Assembly: GCA_000165345.1 (NCBI GenBank)
Contig: CM000431.1
Location: forward strand, 800,001-864,000
Direction of reading: 5' to 3'
DNA: 64,000 nucleotides
Under the pieces are notes generated by a model, which saw only the letters and a program-made list of their open reading frames with translations, searched no databases and was not told the origin of the DNA. Shown here in pieces: positions 53,978 through 63,782 of the stretch. The translations under genes and the position numbers were made by a program. The first letter of the stretch is position 1; every line of letters begins with the position of its first letter.

Positions 53978-55219
53978 TTACAATATAAAATAGGGGCACT
54001 TATTAGAAATGAACCAATGTTCAAAATCTTCAATAGAAATCATATTATCTGAATCCTTATCCAAATGATCGAATATGATTTCTATTTCACTTTTTGAAAT
54101 ACTGAAAGGGAAATTCAATGACTTTAATCCGTTGAATAGCTCATCCTGGTTGATTTGGCCATTTCCATCTTCATCCAAAGCATTAAAAAAACGGTGGATT
54201 TTTTTAAGCTTATATTCAGGGTCGTGATCTTTGCTTATTTTAATATTTCCCAATTCAGAATGGGAAATTTCATCTCTATTATAAATACCTAGATCTTCTA
54301 AATCCCTGCTCCCGTAATACTTGAGGATATTTAGAATCTTTCTTAGCTTTGAAGCTGCTAATATCCCAAATATAATGTTAAGTATTCCTGTAAGCCCTAC
54401 AAATAGTGACATGAGTGAGAAGTATGTAGATTGAGTTAAATATAGAGAAATGGTGCAGAGCAGAATTTGTATAGATCCTCTTCCAACTGATAGTTCTAGG
54501 AATTTGAACCAAGTGCGAACAAATATCTCTATGTGCTTGATTCGCTTCTTTTTAGATACTTCAATGATTAAAACTACAGAGGATATGGATATAATATATA
54601 GCGAGATGACTATTGCTAGCAAGTTTATTGAGATCAGTCCAAAAATGCAGTTTAGGGTACCCATCAAGAACAGGTTTGCGGTTGCTACCTGAGATAAAAC
54701 CCTGAATGATTTTTGTCCCTTAAAAACCTGATCCCTAAACTCTAAATACTGCTCCAATAGGTCCTGTTTTACTTCTAGAAATGAATTCACCGCTTCTTTC
54801 TTTAAGTTTTGAAAAAGTTCATTATCCGTTTTATCTTGGATATCAATTTTTTGTTCATACCGTTCTTTTTTCAGGAGGTGAGCACTTTCGTCGTTGCTGA
54901 GGTTCCCCTGTCCAGGTTCCCCATTTTCCTTTAAACTAACACTCTCTATCTCCCCGTCACATTTCTTCCCATTTGTATTTCCAAGGTTTACTTTGATTTT
55001 ACTTCCCTTGTCGATATTTCTCGACTTTTCGCTATGATTAGCCTTATTGTTTTCATTTTCCTGATTATTTTCCCTTTCATATTCATCCTCATAAATAACA
55101 ACGGAATCTTTGGAAGATCTGAGCTCCTTTTTGTCGGAATCTGGAGTTTTATGGTCGGGATTGTTTCTTCTCATTTCAATAAAGAATGTGAGAATAGAAA
55201 CAATATAAACATAGATCAA
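53978..55219 (-). CDS. Multi-pass membrane protein with two C-terminal EF-hands (hypothetical)
   Basis: EF-hand loops DEDGNGQINQDE and DKDSDNMISIED. Several hydrophobic helices lie in the middle. The N-terminus is charged. Confidence 0.55.
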   Translation of the reverse strand: MIYVYIVSILTFFIEMRRNNPDHKTPDSDKKELRSSKDSVVIYEDEYERENNQENENNKANHSEKSRNIDKGSKIKVNLGNTNGKKCDGEIESVSLKENGEPGQGNLSNDESAHLLKKERYEQKIDIQDKTDNELFQNLKKEAVNSFLEVKQDLLEQYLEFRDQVFKGQKSFRVLSQVATANLFLMGTLNCIFGLISINLLAIVISLYIISISSVVLIIEVSKKKRIKHIEIFVRTWFKFLELSVGRGSIQILLCTISLYLTQSTYFSLMSLFVGLTGILNIIFGILAASKLRKILNILKYYGSRDLEDLGIYNRDEISHSELGNIKISKDHDPEYKLKKIHRFFNALDEDGNGQINQDELFNGLKSLNFPFSISKSEIEIIFDHLDKDSDNMISIEDFEHWFISNKCPYFIL

Positions 55220-55743: not shown

Positions 55744-58700
55744 TTATTCAACCACTTTTATTAGCTGGAATAGATTTCCCTTCCTCTGTAGTGCACATGT
55801 ACCTGGCTCAATAAAGTCACCTTTGACTGCATTGTGAAGAGTAATACTTGGATCCATAGGCCACCAATTAAATGGCCTTGCATACCATCCTAAAGTATTT
55901 CCAAGAGCTGTAGTTTGGGGAACATCCTCCAATGTTGGAATATGCCAAATCCCAGATGTAACCCAAGTTACTACGTCTCTATGTCGGATAACTTCATCAT
56001 CCATAATGAACGAATCAAATCTGACAGCAGGTTTTGAAGCGAATTTATTATCTCTTGGAAGATCTGCATCAAGTTCTGAGTACTTAAACACGGAAGAAGC
56101 CAAATCATACTTTGACCAAGATGCTGGTCCTGAGTAAAGCTCATGTTCAGGCATCAAGTCTGCAATAGATTTAATAGATTTTATCATAAACCCACCAACA
56201 TTCCCATAAGTTTGTAATTTTTCATCAACAACAAAGTATGCTTTAGGATGATGATGAGTTTCATTCAGCATAGAATAGGCATTTGTTTCTCTTTCTGCTA
56301 TAATTCTCTCCAAAATATGGTGTCCTTCTTTCTCAGGATCTCTCCTTACTTTAACCCAAGCTACAGAATTATCCGTATAGTCTGGTCCAAGATCAAAGTC
56401 GACCTTCCAAACAGCAAAGTGAGAGTGTAAAGCTGCCATTTGTCCAGATGGAGTAATCTGAGTCCCGTATTTCTTTTGTTTAGCAGAGAAATATGGTACT
56501 TCCAGACCTGCATATAGTTCACCTGTAAAGCTGACTCCCATTTCAAATGATCCCTGATTATACAAAATAAGGTCTACAATGTAATCGTAGTTGGAGACTG
56601 TAATAATTTGCCTGATAACTAGACTAGTAAGGGGTGCAGCATCTTTAATACCTCCAGATTTCCAATGGGATCTAATTGGTCTTCCAGTATCTAACTCGAA
56701 GATACAGGCACTGCTATCCCAGAAGATAGTCTGAGCAGTGTTTGCGCATTCAAGACCAGGATGGACTTTTCTTGCTGCTGTACCTAAACCTCCGTACCAA
56801 CTGTCCAAGAAGAACCACTGTCTTTCAAATACGGTATAATGAGCCATTGCGTCCACCATTGCAACTTCAAATGCCACTCTTCTTCCTAAAAATGTTAAAT
56901 TCCATATTTTCAGCCCACTATCACGATCATTTGTGAGAGTTAGCTCCCATCCAATCCAATTGACTGTATAAGCCTCTCTATTAGGGGATTTGAAAACTTG
57001 GAATCTTCTACCTCCAGGTTCACAATGTTCAGGTTTAGCTCTGGATTCCAATCCTCCTCTACTAAACATCTCAAGGAACTGAAGCTTTCTTAGCCTTAGT
57101 TCATTCATATGTTTTTCTCTTTGTATTCTTCTCTCTTGTAGAATATTTGGAGTTACAAGTTTTAAAGGAAGGTTGCTAAATGGAGTACCTGAGCTCTGAC
57201 TTTCTTCAATACTTGCTTTGGCTTCATTGTAAGTACTAACCAAGTCCTGAAGAGTTTTAAAAGAAGTTCCATCATACCAAATCCTATTTACCAACATCTG
57301 ATGCATCCTGTCAAACTCTATCTTTGCGTGGCCATTTCTAATGCTCTCTAATGTTGTATAAGGTGCCTTCAATTCGAAAAATATTGGACACTGATTACCT
57401 TCTTTTGTTTTCAAGCCTATCCATAGCTTTGGCTCTGCATCTTCATCCTCATCTTCTTCATCTACATCTTTTCTTTCCTGTTCTTCCTCATTCTCTGAAG
57501 TAACGTTGTGAGGTTGATAAATTATTGGACCTAATTTGACATAATCCTTTCCAAATACTTGGTCTCTGGGAAGATAATTTCCACAAGTTTCGAATACTAT
57601 CTTATCCAAAGAATTCTGTTCCAAAAGCTCTCCCAATTTAAGCATTGGAATTGAGAATCTTGTTTTTCCTTCATCATTTATTATAATCTGCTCCAGCCTC
57701 CTCCCAAAAGGTCCAGTAGGATTCCAGCCATCACATTCTACTGGTCTTGGCTCAGATATTGGATAATGTTTCATTGCTATAATTTTCTCATCTTCACTTA
57801 CGTTGCTAGTAGTGTTTGAATCTGCGACATTCCATAAGCCGATATTCTCAGTCTCTTTTTTGGTAAGAATAATAGGTCCAACTTTCCACTGATGGTAAAG
57901 ACCATTCAATCCAAGAGGATCAACCATATTTTCAGTTTCATTGCAAGATCCAAACCTAACTCTTGCATATCTCTCTGGAGGGTTTGGCTTTGGGTAAAGC
58001 TCTGGAGTCCTTTTATGTAGATCTAGGGAATCCAAATATTCATAGGCCTCAGTCTTATTCACAAACAATGTGACCCTATAAGGACCTTTTGACCCAACTG
58101 ACTCCTTTACTGAGTCAAAGTAGCTCCTAACTTTCATTTCTTCTAAATATGTCAAAGGATCAAAAGGTGTTTCCATTCCATTTTCTACTTCTGAAGGGTA
58201 TGAAGGGATATCACAAAACTTTCCAAAAGAAGAAATATCCTTTGCTGTTGCCCATATATCTGAGATAGTCATTGTTAGTCCTGTCCTACTCTGAGCCATA
58301 CAATAAATAATATACTTTTGGTTGCCTTCAATTCCATTCAAGATTAGTTGCTTTTCTTCTTTAGGATCACTTACTTCAGTATTTTGGCCATACTTTTCGA
58401 TTTCACTTGGACTTGGATACATACCTTCTGGTAGAGTTGCTACACAAGTTATCTTTCCAGGGGTATCACTCTTTACAACAATATTAAATCTTCCAAGTTC
58501 CGGTACAATCCTCGTGATCTCAATTTTTGGAACTCTATCTTTAGTTGTGACTCTCTTGGTTAAGTTTGCCAACACTTTTTCAAAGCTTATTCTATTTGAT
58601 CTTGGTAATGCTAAATCCTCTGCCAAACAGACTATATCATATTCTGTGGATGGAATTAAATTCCTAATTGATAGTTTAATATCTCCACTAATATCCTTAC

Positions 58701-61053
58701 TGGAGATATTTTTCTCAACTCCACTACTTTTTATAAGTTTTACAAGCCTCTGTTCATCAATATGGTCTTTGTTTGCCAAATCTCTAATTCTTGAAAAGTT
58801 GTTATTATTGTCTGCCATACACCAAATCGTTCCTGATTCATTAATCTTCAAAGTAAGCTCAACACTTTCCTCTAATGTTTTAAATTGCTTTATTTCAAGT
58901 TCTGGACTCTTTGAATCAGTAGTTACTCTTATTCTTGAGTATTCAACAGAAAGATCATCCACACTAGAAACAGAGTCAGTATTTCCCTTATTCTTAATGA
59001 TTCTACTAACTTCCTCAGAGAAGCAGAAGAGATCGTACTCTGTATTTGGTCTAATTTCACCCTTAGAAAATGATGAAATAACAAATGTATGACTCTCCTT
59101 TATATTTAAAGATTTCGGGGCTCTTTGTCCATATTTCTTAAGAACTGATACTGTTGGTGTAATAGCTCCTGCTCTGGTAATTCCACACCAAACATCCACT
59201 CCCTCTCTGTTGGACTTTATTGTAGCTCTAATTGTTTTTTCATCTGCTTCAACCTTTTCTATCTGTATTGAACCAATACTTAATTCAGTCTTAAGGCTAG
59301 ATCCTTGCTTGAATCCTTCTCCAACTTTAATCACTTCATCAAAGAACCTGAATTCCAAGTAGCTTCCACTATTCCATCCATCTCCGTAAGAATCATGCAA
59401 GCTTACAGTGTAGTTTCCATATCCTGGTAGACAGCATGGAATCCAGTCAGTACTTGAAACAAGGTCAGAATTTACATTAATATTATTGAAAGAGTAGGTT
59501 CTTCCACTACATCCCAAAGCTCCCTCTACTTCCCAAGACTTCTCAGTTGTGAAGTTACTACTTACAAGCCTTACTTCTCCCCATACACATCTTTGGTCCT
59601 CTCTCTCACTAGATCTCATTACCTCATTTGAGCAATGCCCTGATTTTACAATAATATCATCCAAAGCAATCAAGCTATCCTCAGAACGTCCACCAACTCC
59701 CTCAATAATCATTCTCAAGGGAGTTATACCGTCAGAATAGAATTCAAACCCCCCAAATTGCCATGATGGACCCTGCTGCCCTACAACAAGCCAGTTTGGA
59801 CGTCCATAATGCAATGTAGGTTTTGGGATTTTGTTTTCCAGACGATTTCCTTTACCATCAAGTTGAACTGAGTTCAAAAGACCTGATGCCATATACATCC
59901 TTAACACATTTACATCAGCTCCTGCCATGAAATATCTTAAAGTTAGACAATGACTACCAAAGCTATATACCCTTGGATTTCCTATTAATACTGCTGAAGC
60001 TCCTGGCATATATCCTGGTGCTCTAAAGAAAATATAGTGCCCTTCTCCCTTCACTCCTGTAGTTGTATCACTTTCTGGTCTCGACCCAACTATAGTTTCC
60101 TCACCAACTCCAAGTTCAAATCTTGTCTTTGTTTGGTAGTCTAAAAGAGAGCTGAATCCACAACCAAGGTAACCTTGGAGCTCAAAATCACAATTAAATG
60201 ATGAGTTTTCTTTGGTATTTAATAAACCAGCTGAATAAATATGTAATTTTGGGCTCATGGTATCCTTGAATGCTCTACTTCTTGCAGGAGAATAACAAAT
60301 TGTAAAACTATCAGCATCATCTTTAATCCCATTTATACTGAAGATTACTGTCGCCTGCCTAGCAGCAGATTTTTGCATATTATCACCAATAACAAGCTCT
60401 GAAGTCTCGTATGATCTTACTCCTTTAAACGGTCCCAAGCCAATTTTATTTGGTGGACATTTTCTTAGAATATCACTAAGTAGTAAGTTCTTTTGCTTAA
60501 TAGTCTTCTCTGGAGAATAATTTTCATTTTTTAGTAGGTAAATTGAATCATCTTGTGTTAGACCTACTCCAGATATAGCAACTATACAATTTGATCTTTT
60601 AATACAAAAGTATTCTTGAACAATTGGAGAGATTTCTACAATTGAGTTAGAAGGTCCAGATACTGCCTCATCCTCAGCCCCACTTTGTAACATATAGCCT
60701 CTATTCCCTTCTTCTGGACAGGAGGAGGCACCATCTATAATTTCTGTGGGATTTGGAGAATCTTGGGTATACAAATACAAAACACATCCTTTTTCGGATT
60801 TTTTGTCAGAGCTTACTGCCTTTTCTGGATTGTTAGATTTTTCCTGTAAAGATCTTAGCGAAGGTCTGCCTTTAGATTGTTCTTGTCTTTCTGGAAATAA
60901 TAGCTCTTCAATAGCTGAAGGTTCATTCATACTTGGAAGAATTCCCGCATTTCTAGTTAGTGGATTTGAAGCATCAGCTTCATTTATTTGACTACAGATT
61001 AGTTCAGATAAACTGAAAAAAGTCAGAAGCAAGAACTTTAACCAATGAAGCAT
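55744..61053 (-). CDS. Secreted MAM-domain / copper amine oxidase fusion protein (1769 aa)
   Basis: Signal peptide MLHWLKFLLLTFFSLSELICS. A MAM-like block lies at about aa 290-400 (NCDFELQGYLGCGF...GEGHYIFF...CLTLRYFMAG). The C-terminal copper amine oxidase domain has the topaquinone consensus TVSNYDYI (about 56586..56600) and copper His motifs HSHFAVW and HHH. Confidence 0.8.
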   Translation of the reverse strand: MLHWLKFLLLTFFSLSELICSQINEADASNPLTRNAGILPSMNEPSAIEELLFPERQEQSKGRPSLRSLQEKSNNPEKAVSSDKKSEKGCVLYLYTQDSPNPTEIIDGASSCPEEGNRGYMLQSGAEDEAVSGPSNSIVEISPIVQEYFCIKRSNCIVAISGVGLTQDDSIYLLKNENYSPEKTIKQKNLLLSDILRKCPPNKIGLGPFKGVRSYETSELVIGDNMQKSAARQATVIFSINGIKDDADSFTICYSPARSRAFKDTMSPKLHIYSAGLLNTKENSSFNCDFELQGYLGCGFSSLLDYQTKTRFELGVGEETIVGSRPESDTTTGVKGEGHYIFFRAPGYMPGASAVLIGNPRVYSFGSHCLTLRYFMAGADVNVLRMYMASGLLNSVQLDGKGNRLENKIPKPTLHYGRPNWLVVGQQGPSWQFGGFEFYSDGITPLRMIIEGVGGRSEDSLIALDDIIVKSGHCSNEVMRSSEREDQRCVWGEVRLVSSNFTTEKSWEVEGALGCSGRTYSFNNINVNSDLVSSTDWIPCCLPGYGNYTVSLHDSYGDGWNSGSYLEFRFFDEVIKVGEGFKQGSSLKTELSIGSIQIEKVEADEKTIRATIKSNREGVDVWCGITRAGAITPTVSVLKKYGQRAPKSLNIKESHTFVISSFSKGEIRPNTEYDLFCFSEEVSRIIKNKGNTDSVSSVDDLSVEYSRIRVTTDSKSPELEIKQFKTLEESVELTLKINESGTIWCMADNNNNFSRIRDLANKDHIDEQRLVKLIKSSGVEKNISSKDISGDIKLSIRNLIPSTEYDIVCLAEDLALPRSNRISFEKVLANLTKRVTTKDRVPKIEITRIVPELGRFNIVVKSDTPGKITCVATLPEGMYPSPSEIEKYGQNTEVSDPKEEKQLILNGIEGNQKYIIYCMAQSRTGLTMTISDIWATAKDISSFGKFCDIPSYPSEVENGMETPFDPLTYLEEMKVRSYFDSVKESVGSKGPYRVTLFVNKTEAYEYLDSLDLHKRTPELYPKPNPPERYARVRFGSCNETENMVDPLGLNGLYHQWKVGPIILTKKETENIGLWNVADSNTTSNVSEDEKIIAMKHYPISEPRPVECDGWNPTGPFGRRLEQIIINDEGKTRFSIPMLKLGELLEQNSLDKIVFETCGNYLPRDQVFGKDYVKLGPIIYQPHNVTSENEEEQERKDVDEEDEDEDAEPKLWIGLKTKEGNQCPIFFELKAPYTTLESIRNGHAKIEFDRMHQMLVNRIWYDGTSFKTLQDLVSTYNEAKASIEESQSSGTPFSNLPLKLVTPNILQERRIQREKHMNELRLRKLQFLEMFSRGGLESRAKPEHCEPGGRRFQVFKSPNREAYTVNWIGWELTLTNDRDSGLKIWNLTFLGRRVAFEVAMVDAMAHYTVFERQWFFLDSWYGGLGTAARKVHPGLECANTAQTIFWDSSACIFELDTGRPIRSHWKSGGIKDAAPLTSLVIRQIITVSNYDYIVDLILYNQGSFEMGVSFTGELYAGLEVPYFSAKQKKYGTQITPSGQMAALHSHFAVWKVDFDLGPDYTDNSVAWVKVRRDPEKEGHHILERIIAERETNAYSMLNETHHHPKAYFVVDEKLQTYGNVGGFMIKSIKSIADLMPEHELYSGPASWSKYDLASSVFKYSELDADLPRDNKFASKPAVRFDSFIMDDEVIRHRDVVTWVTSGIWHIPTLEDVPQTTALGNTLGWYARPFNWWPMDPSITLHNAVKGDFIEPGTCALQRKGNLFQLIKVVE

Positions 61054-61480
61054 CTTTTCTTGATTGTTTAAGCTTAAATTAAGATTATATATAATATTAG
61101 TGAGTTAATTTCGACACTTATTTAGCTGCATTCAGCCTTTTTCTTATGCAAAATAATCTTTATTAAATTTAAGGTTTAAATTAATTAATATTATTTGTTT
61201 ATATTAAAAGAATCTGTAAGCTTTTGAGCACTAGATTTAACTTATTAATGTATTTATCGCCAATACTTATACTCTCTAAGTTAAGAAGAAAAGGGAGGTA
61301 TTGGTGAAAATAGTATTCGAATCTATTTATATTTAGATTGAATAATATTAATTTTTAATTCCCAAAAATTATTTCAATTGATTTATATTTGAGAGAAATC
61401 AAATATTACAAATAATATCACTTTTACATCTTTAGACCTTACTTTATATGAAATTCAAACCTTGTTGCATCTACATGCTC

Positions 61481-61520
61481 GGATTTTTGCATGCAAATTG
61501 CAAACTGCATGCAAAAATCC
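61481..61520. promoter_or_regulatory. 40-nt palindrome carrying two GCATGCA (G-box/AP2-like) motifs, upstream of the MAM-CuAO gene
   Basis: GGATTTTTGCATGCA-AATTGCAAAC-TGCATGCAAAAATCC has perfect 15-nt inverted arms. It lies about 430 bp upstream of the CuAO ATG. Confidence 0.5.
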
Positions 61521-61730
61521 GTCTCAAGTAATTTTTACTTTTAAGTATAACTTGAGAACACTTAGGGAAATAAGAGAATATTTAAATTCACAAAATAATT
61601 GAATAAAAATGATAGAAAAGCTCAAAATTATTATTTAATGCCTTTAGACAAAAATCTAAAAAAAGCTATTAGAGTTAATAATACTAGGAGAGAGAAATCT
61701 CTAGGTTATAAAATATCATTGAATAAAAAA

Positions 61731-63782
61731 TTAAGAATCTGAATCTTGAGACTCACAGGAATTATCCTCATGATTAGCATAGTTTTCACTAGATTGATTA
61801 TCTGAATTACCTGGTTTATATGCCTTCTGAGTGATTGCCCAAGAGGCCTGTTTAAGCTCTTCCAGTTGTGATTTAATACTCTGAATAGCGGATTCATAGT
61901 CTGAAGACTGGGTAGATTCTTGTAAAATAGATTGTAATTTAGAAATCTTGGATTCCAAGCTATCTTTTTCTTGGGTATTGATTTGGTCAGCTAGAGAAGA
62001 AATTTGATTTTGTACAGAGTAGATAAAGGCTTCTGCATCATTCTTGAGATCAATAAGCTCTTTTTTAGCTTGATCATTTGCTCTGTATTCTTCAGCTTCT
62101 CTGATCATTTTCTCAATTTCAGCACCACTTAGACCTCCAGAAGATTGAATAGTGATCTCGTGTTTCTTTCCAGTTGACTTATCAATTGCACCAACATTCA
62201 TAATTCCATTTGCATCAATATCAAAGGTGACTTCAATTTGAGGTACCCCTCTGGGTGCTGGAGGAATTCCCATCATTTCAAATTGTCCAAGCAACTTATT
62301 ATCAGCAGCAAATTCTCTTTCTCCTTGGAAAACTTTAATTCCAACTTGAGTTTGATTGTCTGCAGCAGTGGAGAATACTTGGCTCTTTTTAGTAGGTATT
62401 GTGGTATTTCTGTTAATTAATCGAGTAAAAACTCCACCCAAAGTTTCAATACCTAAAGATAAGGGTGTAACGTCGAGTAACAAAAGATCCTTGATCTCCC
62501 CTTTCAAAACACCAGCTTGTATAGCAGCTCCCATTGCAACAGCTTCGTCAGGGTTAACTCCTTTTGATGGCTCTCTTCCAAAGATCTTTTTAACTGTTTC
62601 AGAAACTTTAGGCATTCTAGTCATTCCTCCGACTAAAATAACGTCATTAATCTTTTCCTTAGGGATACCAGAGTCACGAATACATTTCTCACTAGGAGAA
62701 ATAGTCTTTTTCAATAAATCGTCAACAAGTTCTTCATATTTGGCTCTACTTAGTTTGATTTGTAGATGTTTAGGACCTCTTGCATCAGCAGTAATGAAAG
62801 GAAGATTAATTTCAACTTGAGTCTTACTACTCAGCTCTTTTTTTGCAGTTTCTGAGGCTTCCCTTAACCTCTGTAATGCAAGCTTATCACGACTTAAATC
62901 TATTCCTTGCGTTTTCTTGAATTCCTGAATTAAATAATTCAAAATTCGTTGATCAAAGTCTTCTCCTCCTAGGGAAGTGTTACCATTAGTTGCTTTAACT
63001 TCAAACACTCCGCCAAGAATCTCTAAAATAGAAATATCGAAAGTACCTCCTCCCAAATCATAAACTGCGATTGTTTTGCCATCTGCTTTTTCCATTCCGT
63101 ATGCAAGAGCCGCTGCTGTTGGCTCATTAATGATTCTTGTTACATTTAAGCCTGCTATAGAGCCAGCATCCTTAGTTGCTTGACGCTGAGAATCATTAAA
63201 GTAAGCTGGCACAGTAATAACAGCATGCTTTACACCTCTACCAAGATAAGTTTCGGCAGTTTCTTTCATTTTTTCCAAAATAAATGCTCCAATTTGACTT
63301 GGACTATATCTTTCACCTCTAGCTTCAACCCAAGCATCCCCATTATCAGCCCTGACAATCTTATATGGTAAAATTCCCTGTTCCTTCTTGATTGCTTCTT
63401 CTTCGTACCTTCTTCCAATTAGCCTCTTTGTTGCGTAAACAGTGTTTTCTGGGTTTGTGATTGCTTGTCTTTTTGCAACTTCACCAACCAATCTCTGCCC
63501 ATCTTCAGAAAAAGCCACAACAGATGGAGTTGTTCGCATTCCTTCAGAATTTTCTAATACTTTGGGTTGAGTACCTTCTAATATGGCAGTACAAGAATTT
63601 GTAGTTCCTAAATCAATTCCTATAATGTCACCAGTAATTCTCCTATTTGAAGACTTTTTGCCTTCACATTTTGAGCTCATATACCTTGAAAACACTAACG
63701 GAAGGCTCCTTTTAAGTATTCTAGCTGCAATACCAGACGAATTCACCACCCCATTAAAGCTACTATTAATTATCATAGACAT
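61731..63782 (-). CDS. Mitochondrial-type Hsp70 (DnaK/Ssc1-like) with an N-terminal targeting presequence
   Basis: [30 protein letters not shown] and [12 protein letters not shown] are classic HSP70 signatures. The ~45-aa basic/hydroxylated N-terminal extension is typical of a presequence. The organellar-type tail is [11 protein letters not shown]. Confidence 0.9.

What the first reader, a model, noticed from the sequence alone, without database searches (positions are those of the whole stretch)
55744..61053. Secreted MAM-domain + copper amine oxidase fusion (1769 aa)
A C-terminal copper amine oxidase with an intact TPQ consensus (TVSNYDYI) and His ligands is fused behind a signal peptide. 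In front of it lie ~1100 aa containing at least one MAM-like adhesion domain and further Cys/Gly-rich modules (for example GDGWNSG). Amine oxidases are rare in alveolate parasites. A MAM-CuAO architecture suggests an extracellular H2O2-generating or amine-detoxifying surface or adhesion enzyme. It may have been acquired by lateral transfer.
Basis: partly seen in the sequence, partly recalled or inferred. Interest (0 to 1): 0.55.

Follow-up and report, generated by a model that had tools for sequence, protein, structure and literature searches.

The report
Known Cryptosporidium female-gamete copper amine oxidase
The finding is real, but it is the already annotated Cryptosporidium parvum gene cgd3_3430, a secreted multi-domain copper amine oxidase made almost only by female gametes and probably used to harden the oocyst wall, so it is not a discovery.

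Summary
Window 55744-61053 (minus strand) is one uninterrupted 1769-aa ORF. It has a signal peptide, a MAM domain (aa 288-475, Pfam E 2e-14) and a C-terminal copper amine oxidase (CuAO) domain (aa 1342-1737, E 1e-55). The TPQ tyrosine (Y1489), catalytic Asp (D1417) and three copper-binding His (H1543, H1545, H1704) are all intact.

The protein is identical to C. parvum EAK88998.1/Q5CUC0, gene cgd3_3430, annotated as an [quoted passage not shown]. Published RNA-seq shows about 2^9-fold higher expression in females than in asexual stages. Its orthologues EtAO2 (Eimeria) and TgAO2 (Toxoplasma) are macrogamete proteins proposed to cross-link the oocyst wall.

New here is a fuller module map: signal peptide, linker, an unassigned Cys-containing domain, MAM, an unnamed "GDGW" beta module, three FN3-like domains, then a complete CuAO unit (D2-D3-D4) co-linear with human diamine oxidase.

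The same architecture occurs in gregarines (Gregarina, Selenidium) and in the free-living chromerids Chromera and Vitrella. The fusion therefore predates the Apicomplexa, and recent lateral transfer is not supported.

Enzyme activity and the wall-hardening role are untested in Cryptosporidium. Novelty: already known. Interest is low.

The parts
55744..61053 (-). Complete single-exon CDS of C. parvum cgd3_3430 (1769 aa plus stop; 199.3 kDa, pI 5.5)
   Evidence: ORF. Exact-sequence match to EAK88998.1/Q5CUC0. Gene id and the 199 kDa mass come from PMC11039866 and the calculated mass.
60988..61053 (-). Signal peptide, aa 1-22 (MLHWLKFLLLTFFSLSELICSQ)
   Evidence: This is the only hydrophobic segment in the protein (Kyte-Doolittle scan). 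Database names also say 'signal peptide'. The cleavage site was not predicted with a dedicated tool.
60790..60987 (-). Poorly conserved Ser/Glu/Lys/Pro-rich linker, aa 23-88
   Evidence: Identity to C. andersoni is only 10.6%, against 86% for the catalytic domain.
60193..60789 (-). N-terminal Cys-containing domain, aa 89-287, fold unassigned
   Evidence: C90, C112, C150, C156, C199 and C253 are invariant across Cryptosporidium. The domain aligns with the chromerid and Selenidium orthologues. Pfam gives no hit, and hhalign finds no relation to the MAM, GDGW or FN3 modules.
59629..60192 (-). MAM domain, aa 288-475
   Evidence: Pfam PF00629, 54.1 bits, E 2.1e-14. The orthologue profile matches solved MAM domains of SR-C-like protein, MDGA1, neuropilin, enteropeptidase and meprin. 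C288, C298, C369 and C474 are invariant.
59263..59598 (-). 'GDGW' module, aa 486-597: an all-beta extracellular module with the motif DSYGDGWNG and no Pfam family
   Evidence: Pfam gives no hit. An HMM of the module finds 1-6 copies in unrelated proteins: bacterial T9SS cargo, an M4 peptidase, a trypsin-domain protein and a Vitrella LNR protein. The AF2 model shows eight strands, but pLDDT is only about 55.
58954..59262 (-). FN3-like domain 1, aa 598-700
   Evidence: AF2 beta-sandwich with block pLDDT about 67-84. Foldseek top hits are tandem FN3 arrays (E 4e-11). hhalign probability against repeats 2 and 3 is 98%.
58549..58953 (-). FN3-like domain 2, aa 701-835
   Evidence: phmmer also hits FN3 repeats of a fish tenascin-X-like protein.
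58219..58548 (-). FN3-like domain 3, aa 836-945
   Evidence: There is also a weak Pfam hit to a DSCAM Fn3-like model (E 0.17).
57754..58176 (-). CuAO D2 (N2-like) domain, aa about 960-1100, with Cryptosporidium-specific insertions
   Evidence: The orthologue profile aligns co-linearly with residues 10-105 of human DAO (FDPLT..., PxRYARVR..., KVGPL). The match is weak on its own (i-Evalue 0.84). Pfam Cu_amine_oxidN2 is sub-threshold in two orthologues (E 0.08). The assignment is an inference from co-linearity.
57034..57753 (-). CuAO D3 region plus linker, aa 1101-1340, including an acidic insertion at aa about 1183-1207
   Evidence: The main profile match to human DAO starts at DAO residue 211 (VEQVWYNGKFY aligned with VNRIWYDGTSF) and runs on into D4. 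DUF1965 is sub-threshold in the Vitrella-type orthologue.
55843..57030 (-). CuAO catalytic D4 domain, aa 1342-1737
   Evidence: Pfam PF01179, E 1.2e-55. Human DAO matches at E 5.5e-42 with the single sequence and 1.4e-71 with the profile. This is the most conserved part of the protein: 86-99.8% identity across Cryptosporidium species.
56578..56601 (-). TPQ consensus TVSNYDYI, aa 1485-1492; Y1489 is the TPQ precursor
   Evidence: Translation, alignment to the DAO TPQ position, invariance.
61480..61521 (.). 42-bp palindrome with two TGCATGCA octamers, 427-468 bp upstream of the ATG; candidate ApiAP2 site in the promoter
   Evidence: Inverted repeat I1. The octamer occurs 4 times in the window against 0.74 expected. 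TGCATGCA is also found upstream of the orthologues in C. felis, C. bovis and C. andersoni. It is a known ApiAP2 motif (PMC4117751). Function at this site is inferred.

Best explanation
What is shown: the ORF is C. parvum cgd3_3430. It encodes a 199-kDa soluble secretory protein with this module order: signal peptide, linker, unassigned Cys-containing domain, MAM, GDGW module, three FN3-like domains, then a complete animal/fungal-type copper amine oxidase (D2-D3-D4). Every residue needed for TPQ chemistry is present. Transcription is switched on almost exclusively in female gametes.

What is inferred: the protein enters the secretory pathway of the macrogamont. By analogy with EtAO2 and TgAO2, it is stored in cytoplasmic granules resembling wall-forming bodies and released as the oocyst wall is laid down. 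There the copper/TPQ centre oxidises primary amines with O2, producing an aldehyde, NH3 and H2O2. The substrates would be lysine side chains of wall proteins, as in the related Pichia lysyl oxidase, and/or free diamines. The peptidyl aldehydes would condense into covalent cross-links, and the H2O2 would feed peroxidase-type cross-linking. Together these would harden the wall. The MAM, GDGW and FN3 modules would hold or oligomerise the enzyme in the wall matrix. The module set is inherited from the chromerid-apicomplexan ancestor.
For: Identity: exact match to EAK88998.1/Q5CUC0. The gene id cgd3_3430 fits its neighbours: cgd3_3420, an EF-hand/TM protein, is the ORF at 53978-55219, and cgd3_3440, HSP70, is the ORF at 61731-63782.

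Catalytic competence: Pfam and PDB matches, with the TPQ Tyr, Asp base, HxH and third His all aligned and invariant from Cryptosporidium to chromerids. D4 is the most conserved module, at 86% identity between C. parvum and C. andersoni against 40-70% for the accessory modules. That pattern indicates selection on catalysis.

Subfamily: the orthologue profile scores human DAO 1e-71, an Aspergillus CuAO 2e-62, AOC3/BSAO 1e-60 and Pichia lysyl oxidase 2e-52. Plant enzymes score 1e-28 and E. coli 1e-24.

Secretion: a single N-terminal hydrophobic segment and no transmembrane segment.

Stage: mean log2 CPM is 1.3 in asexual stages, 10.7 in females in vitro and 11.9 in females in vivo, giving logFC 9.36 (PMC6877471 supplement). 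The authors list amine oxidases among the female wall-building genes.

Orthologue biology: EtAO2 and TgAO2 localise to macrogamete cytoplasmic foci, and TgAO2 also to the surface of early oocysts (PMC4345034). An Eimeria necatrix CuAO was detected in wall-forming-body and oocyst-wall proteomes (PMC10729351). The C. parvum protein was detected in vesicle preparations from excysted sporozoites (PMC11039866).

Ancient architecture.
Against: No enzymatic, localisation or knockout data for the Cryptosporidium protein turned up in the searched library. EtAO2 antibody did not stain Eimeria oocysts, and its Western band was 60 kDa smaller than predicted. The coccidian model invokes dityrosine cross-links between tyrosine-rich wall proteins. 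A CuAO does not form dityrosine directly, and the Cryptosporidium wall is described in terms of Cys-rich COWPs. The substrate cannot be read from sequence, and the AF2 model of the oxidase half was too poor to inspect the substrate channel (pLDDT 43). D2 and D3 are assigned only through weak, co-linear matches.
Confidence: 0.6

Rival explanations
1. The enzyme is a free-amine ectoenzyme. It would be secreted to the parasite surface or gut lumen to oxidise host or microbial diamines (putrescine, cadaverine, histamine). The purpose would be detoxification, local H2O2 production or host modulation, not wall building.
For: The closest solved relative is human diamine oxidase. The protein is secreted. 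It was found in extracellular vesicle preparations from sporozoites.
Against: Transcription is essentially confined to females and near background in asexual stages, whereas asexual stages face the same gut environment. The free-living chromerids carry the same architecture, so the ancestral role cannot be specific to a host gut. The coccidian orthologues sit in macrogamete granules and on early oocysts.
Confidence: 0.15
2. The protein is mainly a structural or adhesive wall or surface component acting through its MAM, GDGW and FN3 modules, and the oxidase moiety is catalytically irrelevant or dead.
For: More than half of the protein is made of adhesion-type modules. The N-terminal half resembles a MAM-Ig-FN3 receptor ectodomain (RPTPmu ectodomain 2V5Y is among the Foldseek hits).
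Against: All catalytic residues are invariant across very distant lineages. The catalytic domain is the most strongly conserved module. A pseudoenzyme would be expected to show the opposite pattern.
Confidence: 0.05
3. The gene was acquired recently by lateral transfer from an animal host or a bacterium into Cryptosporidium.
For: The best PDB matches are animal AOC1-3. MAM is best known from animals. One bacterial T9SS protein combines GDGW modules with a MAM domain (P0071).
Against: Module-for-module orthologues exist in Gregarina niphandrodes, Selenidium pygospionis, Vitrella brassicaformis and Chromera velia, and in coccidia. Synteny HSP70-AO-EF-hand gene is conserved in C. felis and C. bovis, and HSP70-AO in C. 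andersoni. GC content of the gene (0.37-0.38) falls within the range seen for other coding stretches of the window. Only a transfer that predates the chromerid-apicomplexan ancestor remains possible, and I could not test that.
Confidence: 0.03

Closest known systems
EtAO2 (Eimeria tenella ETH_00028385) and TgAO2 (Toxoplasma gondii TGME49_500391, formerly 286778/286782)
   Same: They belong to the same orthologue group, OG5_127171. They share the signal peptide + MAM + CuAO architecture and are specific to female gametes or gametocytes. They have been proposed as oocyst-wall cross-linking enzymes.
   Different: The Cryptosporidium protein is somewhat larger (199 kDa against a predicted 183 kDa), with insertions in D2 and D3. 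Cryptosporidium wall proteins are described as Cys-rich COWPs rather than the tyrosine-rich proteins invoked for Eimeria. No antibody, tagging or knockout data for Cryptosporidium were found.
Human diamine oxidase AOC1 (PDB 3HI7) and the AOC2/3/BSAO group
   Same: The window protein is co-linear with it from the start of D2 to the end of D4. It shares the TPQ motif, Asp base, three His, the CxC-type disulfide pair positions C1436/C1450 and the acidic Ca-site-like motifs.
   Different: The window protein carries about 960 extra N-terminal residues (Cys-containing domain, MAM, GDGW, three FN3). The gate Tyr of DAO (YLD) is Phe here (FLD). Substrate specificity is unknown.
Pichia pastoris lysyl oxidase PPLO (PDB 1N9E/1W7C)
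   Same: It belongs to the same animal/fungal CuAO subfamily (profile E 1.9e-52, match from D3 into D4). From general knowledge, it is a CuAO that accepts peptidyl-lysine, which gives a precedent for protein cross-linking by a TPQ enzyme.
   Different: It has no accessory adhesion modules. Whether the window enzyme has a similarly wide substrate funnel could not be assessed, because the model was of low confidence.
Type IIB receptor tyrosine phosphatase ectodomain (RPTPmu, PDB 2V5Y: MAM-Ig-FN3 x4)
   Same: The module order of a MAM domain, a small beta module and tandem FN3 domains is analogous. 2V5Y appears among the Foldseek hits and among the MAM profile hits.
   Different: There is no phosphatase and no transmembrane segment. 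The module after MAM is the GDGW module, not an Ig domain. The resemblance is architectural and is not shown to be homologous beyond the individual domains.
Plant apoplastic copper amine oxidases in cell-wall stiffening
   Same: This is a functional analogy from general knowledge: a secreted CuAO supplies H2O2 for peroxidase-mediated cross-linking of wall polymers.
   Different: Plant enzymes belong to a more distant CuAO subfamily (pea 1KSI, E 8e-29 against 1e-71 for DAO) and lack the N-terminal modules.

Membership tests
Copper amine oxidase (TPQ-dependent, Pfam PF01179) | Catalytic D4 domain scores above the curated Pfam threshold | tested here: met
   189.5 bits against a cut-off of 27, E 1.2e-55, full-length match to profile positions 2-407 of 407.
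Copper amine oxidase (TPQ-dependent, Pfam PF01179) | TPQ precursor tyrosine in the T-x-x-N-Y-(D/E)-Y consensus | tested here: met
   TVSNYDYI at aa 1485-1492. Y1489 aligns with the TPQ position of human DAO, where the mutant/TPQ entry 3MPH shows X at that position. Invariant in all orthologues.
Copper amine oxidase (TPQ-dependent, Pfam PF01179) | Three copper-ligand histidines (HxH plus a distal His) | tested here: met
   H1543 and H1545 (LHSHF) and H1704 (WHIP) align with the DAO motifs IHTHL and LHIP. Invariant.
Copper amine oxidase (TPQ-dependent, Pfam PF01179) | Catalytic base aspartate | tested here: met
   D1417 (FFLDSW) aligns with the Asp of DAO YLDVGW. I mapped that position to hDAO Asp373 by counting from the TPQ residue, which rests on my own knowledge that the TPQ is residue 461. 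Invariant.
Copper amine oxidase (TPQ-dependent, Pfam PF01179) | N-terminal D2 and D3 alpha/beta domains precede D4 | tested here: inconclusive
   The profile match is co-linear with DAO residues 10-105 (D2), but its i-Evalue is 0.84. The strong match begins at DAO residue 211 (end of D3). Pfam N2 reaches only E 0.08 in 2 of 11 orthologues and DUF1965 E 5e-4. The AF2 model shows alpha/beta elements at moderate pLDDT for aa 965-1065 only.
Copper amine oxidase (TPQ-dependent, Pfam PF01179) | Self-processed TPQ cofactor, bound Cu(II), homodimer, amine-dependent H2O2 production | not testable with these tools
   Needs recombinant protein and biochemistry.
MAM domain (PF00629) | Profile match above threshold, with the conserved cysteines | tested here: met
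   54.1 bits against a cut-off of 26.4. The orthologue profile hits solved MAM domains at E 3e-25 to 1e-5. C288, C298, C369 and C474 are invariant.
Fibronectin type III domains | Seven-strand beta-sandwich similar to FN3, with sequence-profile membership | tested here: inconclusive
   The fold criterion is met: Foldseek top hits are FN3 arrays (E 4e-11) on a model with pLDDT mostly about 67-94 in these domains. phmmer reaches tenascin-X FN3 repeats. Pfam fn3 itself is only sub-threshold (E 0.11 in 2 orthologues; the DSCAM Fn3-like model at E 0.17).
Apicomplexan AO2 orthologue group (EtAO2/TgAO2, OG5_127171) | Same MAM + CuAO architecture, assignment to the orthologue group, female-gamete expression | tested here: met
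   Architecture. The orthologue group pairing cgd3_3430 with ETH_00028385 and the female logFC of 9.36 come from the PMC6877471 supplements. These last two points are taken from the literature and were not recomputed.

The most novel reading that the evidence does not exclude
The most novel reading not excluded has two parts. First, cgd3_3430 is a lysyl-oxidase-like wall-hardening enzyme belonging to a cyst-wall toolkit that already existed in the free-living, chromerid-like ancestor of the Apicomplexa. On this view it was kept by oocyst-forming lineages; loss from lineages without an environmentally resistant oocyst is a prediction I did not test. Second, its 'GDGW' module (aa 486-597) represents an undescribed extracellular domain family shared with bacterial T9SS cargo and secreted proteases, possibly a matrix- or glycan-binding module.
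Probability: 0.3. Interest if true: 0.4.

Novelty: already known. Interest (0 to 1): 0.15.

Why it matters
The oocyst wall is what makes Cryptosporidium resistant to chlorine and transmissible through water. A single-copy, female-specific, extracellular enzyme with a druggable copper/TPQ active site is a plausible transmission-blocking target. Inhibitors of this enzyme class, such as semicarbazide and hydrazines, already exist. That idea is already in the coccidian literature, and the gene has carried this annotation since the genome was published. The value of this check is therefore confirmation, a more complete module map, and evidence that the fusion is ancient rather than laterally acquired.

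Tried and rejected
1. The AF2 model of aa 965-1769 built on a 14-sequence alignment had mean pLDDT 43. That is too poor for fold search or for inspecting the substrate channel, so I did not use it.
2. The word-index homologue searches returned only 4-7 hits each. A broadly sampled CuAO phylogeny could not be built, and the question of a deep origin stays open.
3. Pfam scans of four separate segments covering most of the non-MAM, non-D4 sequence (aa 23-287, 476-610, 611-1010, 1011-1341) gave nothing usable.
4. The N-terminal domain (aa 89-287) is not a second MAM, an FN3 or a GDGW copy; hhalign probabilities were below 1%.
5. The antisense ORF at 58322-59092 (+, 256 aa, TTG start) lies wholly inside the conserved CDS and translates to Ser/Leu-rich low-complexity sequence. 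I treat it as a by-product of the coding strand and not as a gene.
6. A literature search for a described 'GDGW' domain found nothing relevant.
7. Searches for functional work on cgd3_3430 in Cryptosporidium found only expression, proteomic and polymorphism mentions.
Full report
**Observation.** The ORF list shows an ATG-initiated open reading frame at 55744..61053 on the minus strand. It encodes 1769 aa, matching the reported coordinates exactly. The window is AT-rich (GC 0.27-0.38) with long uninterrupted ORFs. Pfam places a MAM domain at aa 288-475 (54.1 bits, E 2.1e-14) and the copper amine oxidase enzyme domain at aa 1342-1737 (189.5 bits, E 1.2e-55). NCBIfam primary-amine-oxidase models match well below their cut-offs, as expected for a divergent eukaryotic member.

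The best solved relative is human diamine oxidase (3HI7, E 5.5e-42), followed by bovine and human AOC3, an Aspergillus CuAO and Pichia lysyl oxidase. In the printed alignment, TVSNYDYI aligns with the DAO TPQ motif, FFLDSW with the catalytic-base motif YLDVGW, LHSHF with IHTHL, and WHIP with LHIP. This gives Y1489, D1417, H1543, H1545 and H1704. All five are invariant in 10 Cryptosporidium sequences and in alignments that add gregarine and chromerid orthologues. A Kyte-Doolittle scan finds only the N-terminal segment hydrophobic, and no window exceeds 1.6. The protein is thus predicted to be secreted and soluble, with a mass of 199.3 kDa.

**Identity.** An exact-sequence look-up finds the protein as C. 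parvum EAK88998.1 / Q5CUC0, named [quoted passage not shown]. Near-identical entries exist from C. hominis, C. meleagridis, C. tyzzeri, C. ubiquitum and chipmunk genotype I. More distant orthologues (60-85% identity) come from C. canis, C. felis, C. bovis, C. ryanae and C. andersoni.

A proteomics table lists "cgd3_3430 Amine oxidase, 199 kDa" (PMC11039866). The Tandel et al. 2019 supplements list cgd3_3420 (EF-hand/TM), cgd3_3430 (amine oxidase) and cgd3_3440 (HSP70) consecutively. These match the flanking ORFs at 53978-55219 (EF-hand, Pfam) and 61731-63782 (HSP70, Pfam). The same HSP70-AO-EF-hand order is found in C. felis and C. bovis, and HSP70-AO in C. andersoni. The finding is therefore an already annotated gene on C. 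parvum chromosome 3.

**Anatomy beyond the annotation.** I mapped the remaining sequence as follows.
- **aa 23-88:** a poorly conserved linker (10.6% identity to C. andersoni).
- **aa 89-287:** a domain with six invariant cysteines. It aligns with the chromerid and Selenidium orthologues, has no Pfam match and shows no profile similarity to the other modules. Its fold remains unassigned.
- **aa 486-597:** An HMM built from the orthologues finds 1-6 copies of it in unrelated proteins. These include Bacteroidota-type T9SS cargo (one of which also has a MAM domain), a thermolysin-family peptidase, a trypsin-domain protein and a Vitrella LNR-domain protein. The consensus is roughly L-x-T-x-x-W-x-x-E-I-S-W-E-L ... 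C-L-x-x-G-x-Y-T-h-x-h-x-D-S-Y-G-D-G-W-N-G. No Pfam model covers it, and a literature search found no description. The AF2 model predicts about eight strands at low confidence (pLDDT about 55).
- **aa 598-945:** three mutually homologous repeats (hhalign probability 98%, E about 1e-14). They fold as beta-sandwiches with block pLDDT mostly about 67-94. Foldseek matches them to tandem FN3 arrays of fibronectin, the insulin receptor, contactins and the RPTPmu ectodomain (best E 4e-11). The exhaustive phmmer search also reaches FN3 repeats of a fish tenascin-X-like protein.
- **From about aa 960:** the sequence is co-linear with human DAO from DAO's first residues. A profile of 11 orthologues aligns FDPLT...PxRYARVR...KVGPL with DAO residues 10-105 (D2). 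That match is weak by itself, with i-Evalue 0.84. The profile then aligns strongly from DAO residue 211 (end of D3) through residue 694 (overall E 1.4e-71). Sub-threshold Pfam hits to Cu_amine_oxidN2 and DUF1965 in some orthologues agree with this.

The accessory region is therefore about 960 aa, and the C-terminal 810 aa form a complete CuAO unit. Cryptosporidium adds insertions to this unit, including an acidic stretch at aa 1183-1207. The AF2 model of this half was poor (pLDDT 43) and I did not use it.

**Distribution and the lateral-transfer idea.** I ran an exhaustive HMMER search of 1.84 billion representative proteins with aa 476-1340. It found full-length relatives at E 1e-109 to 1e-62. 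Cluster look-ups assign them to Selenidium pygospionis, Vitrella brassicaformis (CEL93257), Chromera velia (Cvel_22317) and Gregarina niphandrodes (XP_011129569). All carry MAM plus Cu_amine_oxid and align module for module: N-terminal domain, MAM, GDGW, three FN3, D2, D3, D4. The coccidian orthologues EtAO2 and TgAO2 are known from the literature.

The fusion was therefore present before apicomplexans diverged from the free-living chromerids. A recent or host-derived transfer into Cryptosporidium is not supported. The oxidase belongs to the animal/fungal AOC/PPLO-type subfamily: profile E 1e-71 to 1e-52, against 1e-28 for plant and 1e-24 for E. coli enzymes. Whether that reflects a very ancient transfer could not be tested, because the word-index homologue searches returned too few sequences for a phylogeny.

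**Function.** Tandel et al. 2019 give these log2 CPM values for cgd3_3430 in sorted stages: asexual 0.2-3.8 (mean 1.33), females in vitro 10.5-10.9 (mean 10.68) and females in vivo 11.3-12.8 (mean 11.94). The resulting logFC is 9.36. Their text lists amine oxidases among female genes that build or modify the oocyst wall.

In Eimeria tenella the orthologue EtAO2 is a gametocyte-upregulated transcript, and its protein localises to macrogamete cytoplasmic foci. In Toxoplasma, TgAO2 also labels the surface of early oocysts. Both were proposed to cross-link wall proteins (PMC4345034; also PMC13049769). An Eimeria necatrix CuAO was recovered in wall-forming-body and wall proteomes.

Within Cryptosporidium the catalytic domain is the most conserved module, at 86% identity to C. 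andersoni against 40-70% for the accessory modules. That argues the chemistry is under selection.

I therefore favour this model. The protein is a secreted, female-specific TPQ enzyme delivered to the nascent oocyst wall. There it oxidises primary amines to aldehydes plus H2O2, and these products drive covalent hardening of the wall. The MAM, GDGW and FN3 modules tether it in the matrix. Identity, architecture, catalytic residues and stage specificity are shown. Localisation, substrate and the cross-linking role are inferred.

Several caveats apply:
- No functional data exist for the Cryptosporidium protein in the searched library.
- The EtAO2 antibody results were ambiguous.
- A CuAO does not itself make dityrosine.
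- Cryptosporidium walls are described mainly in terms of Cys-rich COWPs.

**Rivals.** A luminal diamine-scavenging ectoenzyme is possible. It fits poorly with female-restricted expression and with conservation in free-living chromerids. A purely structural or adhesive protein with a dead oxidase is contradicted by the conservation pattern. Recent lateral transfer is contradicted by the phylogenetic distribution and by synteny.

**Noticed in passing.** The 677-bp intergenic region upstream of the gene contains a 42-bp near-perfect palindrome (61480-61521) with two TGCATGCA octamers. The same octamer lies upstream of the orthologues in C. felis, C. bovis (three overlapping copies) and C. andersoni. 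It is a documented ApiAP2 binding motif (PMC4117751), so this is a plausible regulatory element for the female-specific promoter.

**Verdict.** The gene is already known and annotated as such. Interest is low. The residual novelty lies in the unnamed GDGW module, the unassigned N-terminal domain and the still-untested biochemistry.

Noticed in passing
window 61480-61521 (intergenic, upstream of the AO gene): A 42-bp near-perfect palindrome (two 21-nt arms, no spacer) carries two TGCATGCA octamers, 427-468 bp upstream of the ATG. The octamer occurs 4 times in the window against 0.74 expected. It is also present upstream of the orthologue in C. felis, C. bovis (three overlapping copies) and C. 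andersoni. TGCATGCA is a published ApiAP2 binding motif, so this may be a cis-element of the female-specific promoter.
   Followed up: partly
window 59263-59598 (-), aa 486-597: The 'GDGW' module (consensus ...W..E.SWEL...C...G.YT....DSYGDGWNG...) has no Pfam family. It recurs in 1-6 copies in unrelated secreted proteins: bacterial T9SS cargo (one of which also has a MAM domain), an M4 peptidase, a trypsin-domain protein and a Vitrella LNR protein. It appears to be an undescribed extracellular domain family.
   Followed up: partly
window 60193-60789 (-), aa 89-287: A conserved N-terminal domain with six invariant cysteines is shared with the chromerid and Selenidium orthologues. It has no Pfam or PDB sequence match and no similarity to the other modules. 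No structure prediction was run for it, so its fold is unknown.
   Followed up: partly
window 58322-59092 (+): A 256-aa TTG-initiated ORF lies antisense inside the AO coding sequence. Its translation is Ser/Leu-rich and low in complexity. It is most likely a by-product of the coding strand rather than a gene.
   Followed up: no
window 57430-57510 (-), aa about 1183-1207: An acidic insertion (ENEEEQERKDVDEEDEDEDAEP) sits in the D3 region. It is present in intestinal Cryptosporidium species but absent from C. andersoni, gregarines and chromerids in the alignment. Its function is unknown.
   Followed up: no
window 53978-55219 (-) and 61731-63782 (-): The flanking genes are an EF-hand/transmembrane protein (cgd3_3420, which also gives a weak COPI_assoc hit) and an HSP70 that I take to be mitochondrial-type (cgd3_3440). 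The order HSP70-AO-EF-hand is conserved in C. felis and C. bovis. In C. andersoni the gene downstream of AO differs.
   Followed up: partly
C. hominis orthologue of 55744-61053: A comparative genomics paper (PMC4407392) lists the cgd3_3430 orthologue among the more polymorphic secreted-protein loci of C. hominis. In my alignment, the C. parvum / C. hominis differences are most frequent in the N-terminal domain (95.5-97% identity), while the GDGW, FN3-3 and D4 modules are 99.5-100% identical.
   Followed up: partly
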